Positions 18,268 through 26,333 of a stretch of 27,005 bases of DNA are shown here, piece after piece (position 1 is the first letter of the stretch; each line of letters opens with the position of its first letter). The stretch covers positions 1 through 27,005 of the forward strand of contig SCTV01000075.1 of NCBI GenBank assembly GCA_004298345.1, read 5' to 3'. This stretch comes from Patescibacteria group bacterium. GTDB taxonomy: Bacteria; Patescibacteriota; Minisyncoccia; Phycocordibacterales; PALSA-1337. The notes beneath the pieces are model-generated. The model saw nothing but the letters and a program-made list of their open reading frames with translations. It had not been told where the DNA came from and did not search any database. A program made the position numbers and the translations under genes.

Positions 18268-19431
18268 TTACCTCACCGTCGCTCCGTACGTCTTTTTAGT
18301 CACCTCCTCAAGATTTTTGTGAATGGTATCAATTTCAGATGAAGTGAGGGTGCGGTCGAGGGAGCGGTAGGTGATGCGGAAGGCGTAGCTTACGTTGCCT
18401 TCGCCAAATTTCTTGGCGTTTTCGTATTTGTCCAAAAGCTCGACTTCCTCGATCAGTCCCGGGGCAATTTCGCGGACGGTATCGAAATAGTCGTTGGGAA
18501 TAAAATCATTTTTCACCACAAAAGAGATGTCGCGCACGATTGGTGGATACTTGCTCACTTCTACAAATTTCTGACCAAGCTTGAGTTGCTTCTTTACTCG
18601 CTCATCTTCTGACCAGAGGAGACGGATGTCTGGTAGCTGCATACTGATGATCGCGAGGCGCTCGAGTCCAAATCCGAAAGCCCAGCCGTTGTAGCCTTCG
18701 ACACCAAAATCTTTGAGCACACTTTTGCGAGGCATACCGCCGCCCAAAATTTCAATCCACTGGCTGTTGATTTCTACTTCTACTTCAAGAGATGGATCGG
18801 TGTAGGGGAAGGTGTCTGGGTTGAAGCGGTATTTGATGTTTTTGCCGAAAACACTCTGCACCACTTCCGAGAGGACATTTTTCAAATCTTCAATAGTGAG
18901 CATTTTTTGGCTATCTGGCACAAGGTAGAGTCCGCCCATCTGATGAAAGATGTTCATATGATGTCGGTCGATTTCATCTTTGCGGTAGACTTTGCCGTAG
19001 CACATCACGCCGAGCTCTTTGCCTTCTGCGATTTTCTTTTTGATTTCCTCAAGTTGAAAATAGTAATACCACATCACGGTGTCGTGGGTGCGGAGGACGT
19101 TTTTAGGATCGACATAGTAGGTGTCGGAGGTACTGCGGGCAGGGTGGTCGGGAGCGAAGTTGAACAGGTCGAAAAGGATATTGGTCGGGATGACTTCGGG
19201 AATATCGATATGGTCAAAATCTTTGAGGACTGGGAGGTTCACGACACGTTCTTTGATTTCAGAAAGTGGACTGCCTTTGGTGCGAGAAAGGTCGGCCATG
19301 GCCATATATCGCTTGATACGGAGAGCTTCGGCATCGGTGCGAGATTCGAGGTTTTTAATAAGCTTGTCTTGATCGGCAGTGGAGACTTTATAGAGGTGGC
19401 GGGAGAGGCCGTTTGGGTCTGTTTTTGACAT
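18268..19431 (-). CDS. pheS: Phenylalanyl-tRNA synthetase, chimeric catalytic alpha domain plus FDX-ACB anticodon-binding domain (mitochondrial-type architecture)
   Basis: Catalytic motifs FDLFNFAPDHPARSTSDTYY, VLRTHDT, GKVYRKDEIDRHH..IFHQ, FPYTDPSLEVEV, EILGGG and WAFGFGLERLA. These are followed by SKYPPIVRDISF...YRITYRSLDRTLTSSEI (ACB). Start at ATG 19431. Confidence 0.93.
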   Translation of the reverse strand: MSKTDPNGLSRHLYKVSTADQDKLIKNLESRTDAEALRIKRYMAMADLSRTKGSPLSEIKERVVNLPVLKDFDHIDIPEVIPTNILFDLFNFAPDHPARSTSDTYYVDPKNVLRTHDTVMWYYYFQLEEIKKKIAEGKELGVMCYGKVYRKDEIDRHHMNIFHQMGGLYLVPDSQKMLTIEDLKNVLSEVVQSVFGKNIKYRFNPDTFPYTDPSLEVEVEINSQWIEILGGGMPRKSVLKDFGVEGYNGWAFGFGLERLAIISMQLPDIRLLWSEDERVKKQLKLGQKFVEVSKYPPIVRDISFVVKNDFIPNDYFDTVREIAPGLIEEVELLDKYENAKKFGEGNVSYAFRITYRSLDRTLTSSEIDTIHKNLEEVTKKTYGATVR

Positions 19432-19518
19432 AGGGGTAAGTTTAGGGGAAAAACATAAGAAAGTAAAGGTCACCTTCTGGTTGGGATGTTGAACTTATAT
19501 TTAAAATAACTTAAATAT

Positions 19519-19566
19519 AGATGTGTATACAATAAATACGCGACCGCGTATTTATTGTATACATCT
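19519..19566. repeat. Long AT-rich palindrome (TACG-N6-CGTA core)
   Basis: TGTATACAATAAATACGCG-AC-CGCGTATTTATTGTATACA (19524-19563), with an imperfect outward extension. Confidence 0.9.
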
Positions 19567-19644
19567 CACCCATCCGCTATAAAATTATGGGGTTGTATGG
19601 AAAAGTAAGCTGGAGCAAGGCCATATAGTGTTCAAGGACTAAAT

Positions 19645-19685
19645 AAAATTCAATGGCTCATTAAGCTAATGAGCCGTTGAATTTT
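19645..19685. repeat. GGCTCATTA-N3-TAATGAGCC palindromic repeat, copy 3
   Basis: AAAATTCAATGGCTCATTA-AGC-TAATGAGCCGTTGAATTTT: 19 bp with one T.G pair. Confidence 0.9.
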
Positions 19686-19725
19686 AACTATCGGTGATAA
19701 AACTAGTCTGACTAGTTCCTTTAGG

Positions 19726-19769
19726 CACATACATCGATTATACGTACGTGCGTATAATCGATGTATGTG
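19726..19769. repeat. Long palindrome (TACG-N6-CGTA core)
   Basis: CACATACATCGATTATACG-TACGTG-CGTATAATCGATGTATGTG, a perfect 19-bp stem. Confidence 0.9.
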
Positions 19770-19837
19770 AGGTAAGTAGTGTCTTGTAAAAGATGAACTA
19801 TCCTAGGTTTATGCCATAGGGTATTGTTGGTAGAAAT

Positions 19838-25085: not shown

Positions 25086-26333
25086 CTATTTTTTCTCCCT
25101 GATCTCTTTATTCAATTTTTCCAACACTTCTTCGGCACTCATCTGGCCAAGGTTGCCACTGTCTCGACTTTCGAGAGTAACTTTTTGAGCAGCAATGTCT
25201 TTGTCACCAATGATGATGAAGTAAGGAATCTTTTCTACTTTTGCAGCACGGACTTTTTTGCCAAAACCTTCATTTCCAAGTGAGAGCTCGCAGCGAATCT
25301 GCGCTTCACGGAGCATTGTGTATACCTTTTTTGCCTCTGCCTGGTGTTGCTCATCTATTGGAATAATTTTTACCTGTACCGGAGAAAGCCAGAGAGGGAA
25401 GGCGCCCATATATTTTTCAATAAGAAAAGCAATGATACGTTCGATCGCACCGACCGATGAGCGGTGTACCACTCGAGCGAGCTCTTCTTTGCCGGCTTCA
25501 TTTATGTAAGTCAGATTAAATCGGCCAGGCATACAGAAGTCGTACTGGACGGTAAAGGCGGTGTCCTCTTTGCCATTAGCATTTTTCATCTGAATATCTA
25601 TCTTTGGGCCATAAAATGCCGCTTCATCTTTTGCTTCAGTAAACTTACTTCCTCGCTTTTTCAACAATGCACGCAAGAGCCCCTCGCTTTTTTCCCATGC
25701 AGCATCATCTTTGTGGTATTTTTCAGTGTTGGTGATATCACCGAGGGAAAGTCTGTACCAGTAGTCAGTATCTTTTTTGAGACCCATAGTTTCGGTCACA
25801 AATTCGATGAGGTCGAGTGCCTTACCGATTTCTTCTGTAGCTTGCTCATCATCTTTACAGATAATATGTGCATCTGAAAGACAAAATGTACGAACACGCT
25901 GAAGACCCATGAGCTCTCCAGATTGCTCATATCGATAGAGCCGTGCAAGCTCGGCAATACGTACCGGTAGTTCTTTGTACGTATGTGGTTTGCGGAGATA
26001 GAGCTCGAAATGATGGGGACAGGTCATCGGACGGAGCATAAATTCCTCATCATCGATTTTGATCGGCGCATACATTGAATCCTGATAATGTGGATAGTGA
26101 CCAGACTTACGGTAGAGATCAAGCTTGGCGATCTCTGGTGTGTAGACGTGTTTGTAGTCGCGCCTAGTTTCCTCGTCCACGATAAAGCGTTCGAGCTCAC
26201 GGCGAATCACCGAGCCTTTTTCGGTCCAGAGGGGAAGACCTTTGCCGACTGATGTTGAAAAAGCAAAGAGGTCGAGCTCTTTTCCGAGTTTTTTGTGATC
26301 GCGCTCTTCGGGAGCGGGTGTTGGTGTTGTCAT
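25086..26333 (-). CDS. thrS: Threonyl-tRNA synthetase, short form lacking N-terminal TGS/editing domains (415 aa)
   Basis: It begins directly at RDHKKLGKELDLF. Motifs LYRKSGHY, LRPMTCPHH, ELARLYRYEQSGELMGLQRVRTF, DAHI, AFYGPKIDI, TVQYDF, VHRSSVGAIER and FPLWLSPVQV, then the anticodon-binding domain. Confidence 0.95.
   Translation of the reverse strand: MTTPTPAPEERDHKKLGKELDLFAFSTSVGKGLPLWTEKGSVIRRELERFIVDEETRRDYKHVYTPEIAKLDLYRKSGHYPHYQDSMYAPIKIDDEEFMLRPMTCPHHFELYLRKPHTYKELPVRIAELARLYRYEQSGELMGLQRVRTFCLSDAHIICKDDEQATEEIGKALDLIEFVTETMGLKKDTDYWYRLSLGDITNTEKYHKDDAAWEKSEGLLRALLKKRGSKFTEAKDEAAFYGPKIDIQMKNANGKEDTAFTVQYDFCMPGRFNLTYINEAGKEELARVVHRSSVGAIERIIAFLIEKYMGAFPLWLSPVQVKIIPIDEQHQAEAKKVYTMLREAQIRCELSLGNEGFGKKVRAAKVEKIPYFIIIGDKDIAAQKVTLESRDSGNLGQMSAEEVLEKLNKEIREKK

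What the first reader, a model, noticed from the sequence alone, without database searches (positions are those of the whole stretch)
18268..19431. Mitochondrial-type single-chain PheRS in a bacterium
Seen: the PheS catalytic domain lacks the N-terminal coiled-coil arm and is fused to a C-terminal FDX-ACB domain (about 18268-18555, SKYPPIVRDISF...), 387 aa in all, with no pheT adjacent. Established: most bacterial PheRS are (alpha-beta)2 with ACB and the B3/B4 editing domain on PheT, whereas organellar PheRS (FARS2/MSF1) is a monomeric alpha-ACB chimera without editing. Inference: a stand-alone monomeric PheRS relevant to the origin of the organellar enzyme.
Basis: partly seen in the sequence, partly recalled or inferred. 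Interest (0 to 1): 0.6.

Follow-up and report, generated by a model that had tools for sequence, protein, structure and literature searches.

The report
Single-chain PheRS replacing pheST in Parcubacteria
This ultra-small (CPR/Parcubacteria) bacterium has only one phenylalanyl-tRNA synthetase gene, a one-piece enzyme built like the mitochondrial one and lacking the proofreading beta subunit that reviews describe as universal in bacteria.

Summary
Window 18268-19431 (-) encodes a 387-aa protein with a PheS class II core (residues 49-282) fused to an FDX-ACB anticodon-binding domain (293-387). It has only about 45 residues in place of the N-terminal coiled-coil arm.

- **Sole PheRS.** It is the only PheS-type gene in the 708-kb, 93%-complete genome. 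That genome has tRNA-Phe(GAA) but no pheT and no B3/B4 editing domain.
- **Either/or distribution.** Among 151 genomes of the same class, 34 carry this form and 112 carry PheT. One has both and six have neither.
- **Closest structure.** The AlphaFold model (pLDDT 93.7) superposes along its full length on closed human mitochondrial PheRS (TM 0.76-0.79).
- **One origin of the fusion.** Trees of the core and of the ACB domain both separate all single-chain forms from canonical PheS/PheT. The bacterial clade is sister to the organellar/viral family TIGR00469, not inside it, and scores below that family's cut-off.
- **Active site.** Catalytic residues are kept, with a strictly coupled swap (D117+G166 versus X117+D166).

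Most likely this is the housekeeping PheRS, working without editing. Its oligomeric state and the direction of transfer relative to eukaryotes are unresolved. I found no paper describing this. This scan has reported the same family on at least six other genomes.

The parts
18268..19431 (-). Gene for the single-chain PheRS (387 aa plus stop codon); protein P0001
   Evidence: ORF list and translation. It is the only PF01409 hit in the genome. There are thousands of homologues, and all 120 listed share the same two domains.
19288..19431 (-). Short N-terminal region (residues 1-48), in place of the roughly 100-residue coiled-coil arm of canonical PheS
   Evidence: The Pfam core starts at residue 49. 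The AF2 model shows one short strand and two 11-residue helices. The core starts at residue 107-144 in the E. coli and most CPR canonical PheS ORFs examined.
18586..19287 (-). Class II catalytic core of the PheS type (residues 49-282), with motif 2 (VYRKDEIDRHHMNIFHQMGG), the Phe pocket (FPYTDPS, GWAFGFG) and motif 3 (GLERL)
   Evidence: Pfam PF01409, E 1.4e-53. The genome search places the match at 18586-19287. Residue table: R150, H158, F162, Q164, F208, A251 and R258 are invariant in all groups.
18271..18555 (-). FDX-ACB (PheT B8-type) anticodon-binding domain, residues 293-387
   Evidence: Pfam PF03147, E 1.9e-22. It matches positions 691-798 of the PheT model. In the ACB tree it lies with the other single-chain forms, apart from PheT B8.

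Best explanation
The gene encodes the cell's only, housekeeping phenylalanyl-tRNA synthetase. It is a single chain in which the PheS catalytic core activates Phe and transfers it to tRNA-Phe(GAA), while the C-terminal FDX-ACB domain reads the GAA anticodon. These are the jobs that canonical bacteria split between PheS and the B8 domain of PheT. By analogy with human mitochondrial PheRS, it probably rests in a closed form and swings the ACB domain open on a hinge to bind tRNA. It probably acts without a beta subunit. It has no B3/B4 site to hydrolyse Tyr-tRNA-Phe, so fidelity rests on the synthetic site alone. In a patchy set of Parcubacteria lineages this form has displaced the pheS-pheT pair. 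It descends from the same fusion event as the organellar enzyme, not from these bacteria's own pheST. What is shown: the domain content, its uniqueness in the genome, the either/or distribution, the fold, the conserved active site and the phylogeny. What is inferred: aminoacylation activity, monomer state, hinge motion and lack of editing in vivo.
For: - Domains: PF01409 plus PF03147.
- Own genome: one PF01409 hit, no PheT, no B3_4 domain, and tRNA-Phe(GAA) with A73 present.
- Phylum sample of 301 genomes: 19 carry the whole single-chain ACB type and one more (G270) a fragment of it, and none of the 20 has a full pheT.
- Class sample of 151 genomes: 34 single-chain, 112 with B3_4, 1 with both, 6 with neither. 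The one-contig genomes G376 and G430 carry the single chain and no B3_4.
- PDB by sequence: human mitochondrial PheRS at E 3e-55, bacterial alpha subunits at E 3e-34 or weaker.
- AF2 model: pLDDT 93.7, pTM 0.88.
- Foldseek: 3cmq and relatives at TM 0.76-0.79 over 384-403 columns.
- Core tree (careful): canonical versus single-chain split 100/100, bacterial single-chain clade 100/97, organellar family 100/96.
- ACB tree: PheT B8 100/96, organellar family 97/96, CPR clade 99/83.
- AU test rejects grouping the CPR single chains with CPR canonical PheS (p 0.0024).
- Shared signature: W250 (GWAFG) in all single-chain groups, F in canonical PheS.
- Selection on the active site: 190 of 203 family members have D117+G166 and 13 have X117+D166; none has both or neither.
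Against: - No biochemical data exist for any member of this clade.
- The genome is 93% complete in 91 contigs, so absence of pheT in this one assembly is not proof. The argument rests on the relatives.
- The protein scores below the curated cut-offs of all three NCBIfam PheRS-type models.
- The nearest non-CPR relative (P0126, an Oligoflexia MAG) coexists with a full pheS-pheT pair, so in that genome the form is an extra paralogue of unknown role.
- One class member (G436) has both forms.
- The acidic residue that is E or D at position 166 in every other group is Gly here. I read D117 as its replacement, but this was not checked in three dimensions.
- The closed pose of the model may echo solved structures.
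Confidence: 0.85

Rival explanations
1. It is a paralogous PheS-like ligase with another role (as NCBI supposes for the 'mystery ligase' SrmL). On this reading the true PheRS lies in the unassembled 7% of the genome.
For: The best NCBIfam hit by score is NF051887 SrmL, at 229 bits. The Oligoflexia relative P0126 coexists with canonical pheS and pheT.
Against: The score is below the SrmL cut-off of 300. In the class sample, 33 of 34 carriers lack the PheT editing domain, including one-contig genomes, and in the phylum sample none of the carriers has a full pheT. tRNA-Phe is present and no other PF01409 gene exists. The Phe-pocket residues, including A251, are invariant.
Confidence: 0.04
2. It is the housekeeping PheRS but does not work as a lone monomer. 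It would act as a homodimer, or together with a small PheT-B2-like tRNA-binding protein.
For: Class II synthetases are normally dimers (established knowledge). In some relatives a PheT-B2-like OB domain is encoded directly upstream of the single-chain gene (L053, L060, G015), and in L072 and L075 it lies in one open frame with it (514 aa).
Against: This genome has no PheT-B2-like gene. Its only tRNA_bind ORF (contig C34) is of the MetRS C-terminal/Trbp111 type. The human homologue of the same architecture is an active monomer (PMC3275996).
Confidence: 0.2
3. The chimera arose independently in CPR bacteria, by an in-frame deletion that joined their own pheS to the 3' end of pheT. On this reading it only converges on the mitochondrial design.
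For: pheS and pheT are adjacent in most CPR relatives examined, so a single deletion could produce such a fusion.
Against: The core and ACB trees both place CPR single chains with the organellar family across a long branch, away from CPR and E. coli PheS/PheT (100/100 and 100/96). The AU test rejects the CPR-only grouping (p 0.0024). The W250 signature is shared by all single-chain groups. Canonical sequences came only from Patescibacteria and E. coli, so the sampling is narrow.
Confidence: 0.04
4. The bacterial clade descends from an ancient transfer of the already fused organellar gene from a (stem) eukaryote or a giant virus into bacteria. It then spread horizontally among CPR lineages.
For: The distribution is patchy. 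About 6% of the phylum sample and 22% of the class sample carry it, several families are mixed, and even one genus is mixed (G284 versus G256). The organellar family also includes copies on virus-like contigs, which shows that it is mobile.
Against: The bacterial clade is not nested inside the eukaryotic sequences; the two clades are reciprocally monophyletic. Some bacterial members keep a PheT-B2-like piece next to or fused with the gene, which points to a bacterial pheT ancestry.
Confidence: 0.3

Closest known systems
Mitochondrial/organellar PheRS (human FARS2, PDB 3CMQ closed and 3TUP open; yeast-type Msf1; NCBIfam TIGR00469; 'PheRS-M' of AARS Online)
   Same: It has the same two-module chain: a PheS core plus a B8-type FDX-ACB domain, with no coiled-coil arm and no editing domain. 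It is the best sequence match (E 3e-55) and the best full-length fold match (TM 0.76-0.79, 31-32% identity). The two share the W250 signature and one stem in both domain trees.
   Different: The host is a bacterium, and the enzyme serves cytoplasmic translation as the sole PheRS. It scores 219.9 against a cut-off of 258.35 and forms a sister clade. It lacks the insertion that splits the core match in most eukaryotic members. It has D117+G166 where the organellar family has E or D at 166.
Canonical bacterial (alpha-beta)2 PheRS (PheS TIGR00468 plus PheT TIGR00472; for example E. coli b1714/b1713)
   Same: It has the same catalytic core residues, and its anticodon-binding domain is homologous to PheT B8.
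   Different: It has no beta subunit at all: the B1, B2, B3/B4 editing, B5 and B6/7 domains are absent. It has no alpha coiled-coil arm, and it scores 170 against a cut-off of 237.45. It is separated from canonical PheS by a 100/100 branch.
NCBIfam NF051887, 'PheS-related mystery ligase SrmL'
   Same: The model spans a core plus an ACB-like region and gives the highest raw score for this protein (229 bits over model positions 33-344).
   Different: The score is below the cut-off of 300. I found no paper on SrmL. Here the protein is the only PheRS rather than an accessory paralogue.
Single-chain PheS-ACB paralogues in non-CPR bacteria (P0126 in an Oligoflexia MAG, GCA_019694465.1; P0129)
   Same: They belong to the same clade as the CPR proteins (100/97), at about 40-43% identity.
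   Different: The Oligoflexia genome also has full pheS and pheT. Only 2 of 61 sampled genomes of that phylum carry the paralogue.

Membership tests
Organellar PheRS, NCBIfam TIGR00469 (pheS_mito) | Whole-protein score at or above the curated cut-off (258.35 bits) | tested here: not met
   The score is 219.9 bits. Eukaryotic and virus-like members tested in parallel score 260-308.
Organellar PheRS, NCBIfam TIGR00469 (pheS_mito) | Single chain made of a PheS core plus a C-terminal FDX-ACB domain, without a coiled-coil arm or B3/B4 | tested here: met
   Pfam domains and a full-length fold match to 3cmq.
Organellar PheRS, NCBIfam TIGR00469 (pheS_mito) | Placement inside the organellar clade in a tree | tested here: not met
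   It lies in a sister clade. The organellar family has 100/96 support and the bacterial single-chain clade 100/97.
Organellar PheRS, NCBIfam TIGR00469 (pheS_mito) | Active as a monomer | not testable with these tools
   This needs purified protein. The one homodimer prediction job gave no verdict (see Tried and rejected).
PheRS catalytic subunit (class IIc, Pfam PF01409) | Class II motifs 2 and 3 and the Phe-pocket residues (motif 2 Arg, FHQ, FP[FY]T, GxAFG with Ala) | tested here: met
   R150, H158, F162, H163, Q164, F208, Y210, T211, A251 and R258 are conserved. PF01409 E 1.4e-53.
PheRS catalytic subunit (class IIc, Pfam PF01409) | Charges tRNA-Phe with phenylalanine | not testable with these tools
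   This is inferred from its being the only PheS-type gene beside a tRNA-Phe(GAA) gene.
Canonical bacterial PheRS (TIGR00468 PheS with TIGR00472 PheT) | A beta subunit encoded in the genome | tested here: not met
   There is no PheT match other than this gene's ACB domain and an unrelated OB ORF, and no B3_4 domain. The genome is 93% complete.
Canonical bacterial PheRS (TIGR00468 PheS with TIGR00472 PheT) | [quoted passage not shown] | tested here: not met
   The score is 170 bits, and the core starts at residue 49.
NCBIfam NF051887 SrmL | Score at or above the cut-off (300 bits) | tested here: not met
   The score is 229 bits and 228.4 bits in the genome search.

The most novel reading that the evidence does not exclude
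The alpha-plus-B8 fusion that defines 'mitochondrial' PheRS was made in bacteria, and eukaryotes (and giant viruses) acquired it ready-made. On this reading the Parcubacteria/other-bacteria clade is the surviving bacterial branch of that lineage, and its PheT-B2 stubs and B2-core-B8 fusions are relics of the stepwise break-up of pheT.
Probability: 0.3. Interest if true: 0.8.

Novelty: new variant of a known kind. Interest (0 to 1): 0.55.

Why it matters
- **It contradicts the reviews.** They state that the heterotetramer is conserved in all known prokaryotes and that the mitochondrial enzyme is the only monomeric class II synthetase (PMC3275996). A large bacterial group living on a one-chain, editing-free PheRS contradicts the first statement and makes the second testable.
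- **It gives the organellar enzyme a bacterial sister clade.** Questions about how and where the fusion arose can now be put to a tree.
- **It fits a wider pattern.** Together with the editing-less ThrRS 6 kb away, it suggests that these reduced cells tolerate lower aminoacylation fidelity, as is known for mitochondria and Mycoplasma.
- **It has practical consequences.** Among the source names listed for the family, NCBI labels most copies 'hypothetical protein', because no equivalog cut-off is reached. To my knowledge pheT is also one of the standard single-copy bacterial marker genes, so its true absence can distort completeness estimates and marker-based trees for these lineages.

Tried and rejected
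- **Homodimer prediction** (two copies, alignment A1): no verdict. The score was 0.00 and the controls were not run. It is neither evidence for nor against a monomer.
- **Literature:** seven full-text searches on monomeric or mitochondrial-like PheRS, CPR, Patescibacteria, Parcubacteria, pheT and SrmL found no paper describing a bacterial single-chain PheRS. Papers opened do not mention it.
- **Regulatory leader:** an Rfam search of the 900 bases upstream found no T-box or other family, only chance-level hairpin hits. The promoter and terminator scan was at background level.
- **The genome's tRNA_bind ORF** (contig C34, 1375-1821): I considered it as a PheT remnant and rejected that. It is of the MetRS C-terminal/Trbp111 type.
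- **First core tree**: its 'no-ACB' rows turned out to be truncated members of the organellar family, not canonical PheS. I rebuilt the tree with verified pheS-pheT pairs.
- **Wrong strand:** a first Pfam call for the neighbouring ThrRS used the wrong strand and was repeated correctly.
- **Unpublished genome:** G154 is one of the 301 genomes counted.

Full report
**Observation**

The minus-strand ORF runs from the ATG at 19431 to the stop at 18268-18270 and gives a 387-aa protein, P0001.
- Pfam finds the PheS-type class II core at residues 49-282 (E 1.4e-53) and the FDX-ACB domain at 293-387 (E 1.9e-22). In window coordinates these are 18586-19287 and 18271-18555.
- Only about 45 residues precede the core. 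In the model they form a short strand and two 11-residue helices. In the E. coli and most CPR canonical PheS ORFs examined the core begins at residue 107-144. The coiled-coil arm is therefore missing.
- The neighbours are unrelated small genes and gyrB.
- No T-box or other Rfam leader precedes the gene.

**Is it the cell's PheRS?**

The window is contig C71 of a 708,096-bp assembly in 91 contigs, 93% complete.
- The PF01409 search finds this gene and nothing else.
- The PheT model finds only this gene's ACB domain and an OB-fold ORF on C34. That ORF is of the MetRS C-terminal/Trbp111 type, not PheT.
- The PheT editing domain B3_4 is not found.
- A normal cloverleaf tRNA-Phe(GAA) with A73 is present.

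One incomplete assembly cannot prove absence, so I looked at relatives.
- In an even sample of 301 genomes of the phylum, 239 have a PheT above the curated cut-off. The 19 genomes that carry this ACB type whole (E 1e-27 or better, in ORFs of 377-411 aa in all but one) all lack a full pheT. So does G270, which holds only a fragment of it.
- In 151 genomes of the same class, 34 have the single chain and 112 have B3_4. One (G436) has both and six have neither.
- The one-contig genomes G376 and G430 have the single chain and no B3_4.
- Record titles of carriers name Candidatus Taylor-, Nomura-, Zambryski-, Kaiser-, Vogel-, Colwell- and Doudnabacteria, that is, Parcubacteria.
- The trait is patchy. 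Several families are mixed, and in one genus G284 has the single chain while G256 has a short pheS plus pheT.

**Structure and active site**

An AlphaFold2 model built from a 56-row alignment has mean pLDDT 93.7 and pTM 0.88.
- Foldseek ranks human mitochondrial PheRS first: 3cmq and its mutants at TM 0.76-0.79 over 384-403 columns, rmsd about 3.5 Å.
- The open, tRNA-bound form 3tup scores TM 0.57. Bacterial alpha subunits match the core only, at query-normalised TM about 0.52. The model thus adopts the closed pose.
- By sequence, the human enzyme scores E 3e-55 and the best bacterial alpha subunit E 3e-34.
- All residues I could align with the known catalytic and Phe-pocket positions are kept: R150, H158, F162, H163, Q164, F208, Y210, T211, A251 and R258.
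- One position differs. The acid at position 166 is E or D in every other group but Gly here, while position 117 is Asp where the other groups mostly have Thr.
- Over 203 family members the two states are strictly coupled: 190 have D117+G166, 13 have X117+D166, and none has both or neither.
- In solved PheRS structures the homologous loop and strand both contact the substrate's amino group. That statement rests on my recollection of the literature and was not tested here. I therefore read the swap as a relocated carboxylate under selection.

**Evolution**

A search of 1.84 billion cluster representatives found only 200 proteins at E 1e-30 or better. They fall into three groups.
- The CPR clade.
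- A few other bacterial single chains. P0126 comes from an Oligoflexia MAG whose genome also has pheS and pheT. P0127 and P0133 come from bacteria in which the gene translates to the protein only with TGA read as sense. P0129 comes from an uncultured bacterium on a metagenome contig carrying glycoside-hydrolase and transporter genes.
- The organellar family. It contains eukaryotes (a Schizosaccharomyces Msf1, a fern, a choanoflagellate) and proteins of 340-360 aa on virus-like contigs. All those tested pass the TIGR00469 cut-off.

P0001 passes no NCBIfam cut-off: SrmL 229 of 300, pheS_mito 219.9 of 258, pheS 170 of 237.

I took 22 canonical PheS sequences. Eighteen came from loci with pheT beside them (17 Patescibacteria and E. 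coli). Four more Patescibacteria PheS have a pheT match on the same contig or 68 (L084-L086), or a locus that did not take in its B8 end (L110).
- The careful core tree (79 rows, 231 columns) separates canonical from single-chain forms at 100/100. It gives the bacterial single-chain clade 100/97 and the organellar family 100/96.
- The tree of the ACB domain alone agrees: PheT B8 100/96, organellar family 97/96, CPR clade 99/83.
- An AU test rejects a tree that joins the CPR single chains to CPR canonical PheS (p 0.0024).
- W250 (GWAFG) is shared by all single-chain groups, against F in canonical PheS.

So the fusion most likely arose once, and these bacteria did not make it from their own pheST. 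Two limits apply. Canonical sampling covers only two phyla. The two single-chain clades are reciprocally monophyletic, so the direction of transfer (bacteria to eukaryotes or the reverse) cannot be read.

**Mechanism proposed**

The core makes Phe-AMP and transfers Phe to tRNA-Phe. The ACB domain reads G34-A35-A36. As in the human enzyme, a closed resting form would open by rotation of the ACB domain when tRNA binds (PMC3275996 for the monomer and domain mobility). There is no hydrolytic editing of Tyr-tRNA-Phe. These steps are inferred from homology.

**Comparison and novelty**

The protein works like organellar PheRS but fails two membership tests for that family: the score cut-off and clade placement. 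It is best described as a bacterial sister family of the same architecture that serves as the sole cytoplasmic PheRS.
- The review PMC3275996 calls the heterotetramer conserved in all known prokaryotic species.
- Seven literature searches found no description of a bacterial exception.
- This scan has already reported the same family on at least six other genomes, and once with an upstream PheT stub. My results agree with those notes and add four things: the quantified either/or distribution, the two-domain phylogeny with an AU test, the D117/G166 swap, and the B2-core-B8 fusion.

**Verdict**

- Housekeeping single-chain PheRS: confidence 0.85.
- Monomer state, absence of editing in vivo and evolutionary direction remain open.
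- Novelty: new variant of a known kind.
- Interest: 0.55.

Noticed in passing
L053:3551-3976, L060:3235-3651, L072:3608-5149, L075:3608-5149; G015:C1:517943-518296; G006:C1:41657-42007: In some relatives a 137-144-aa OB protein most like the B2 domain of PheT (98-153 bits to pheT_bact) sits directly upstream of the single-chain PheRS gene. In L072 and L075 it lies in one 514-aa open frame with that gene, giving B2-core-B8. This genome has no such piece.
   Followed up: partly
window 25086-26333 (-): The ThrRS-like gene (415 aa) has only the class II core and the HGTP anticodon domain. It has no TGS or editing (tRNA_SAD) domain, so a second synthetase in this window lacks its proofreading part.
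   Followed up: partly
L084 (G178), L085 (G211), L086 (G256): same order as the window's genome: Relatives that keep pheS-pheT have a very short PheS (244-270 aa, core starting at residue 11-50) and a short PheT (open frames of 602-645 aa). The alpha coiled-coil arm is therefore also lost in some canonical enzymes.
   Followed up: no
G436 (same class): C57:1592-1879 and C2:2716-3234: This is the only sampled genome with both a single-chain PheRS (387-aa ORF) and a PheT with B3_4. It is either a transitional state or a binning error.
   Followed up: no
L114 (340,874-bp contig) and L116 (31.8-kb contig): Proteins of 348-357 aa that pass the pheS_mito cut-off lie on virus-like contigs. One contig carries a phage metallopeptidase, PcfJ and an SNF2 helicase. 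The other carries PTH2, an NAD-dependent ligase, Kelch repeats and UvrD.
   Followed up: partly
L117/L120 (G301, Oligoflexia MAG GCA_019694465.1): A 414-aa single-chain PheS-ACB protein coexists with canonical pheS and pheT in a 3.4-Mb genome. Only 2 of 61 sampled genomes of that phylum have it, and its role there is unknown.
   Followed up: partly
window 19432-19770: The 5' region of the gene holds three long perfect or near-perfect palindromes (about 19524-19563, 19655-19675 and 19727-19768), and TAAACT lies 7 nt before the ATG with no Shine-Dalgarno sequence. No Rfam family matches.
   Followed up: partly
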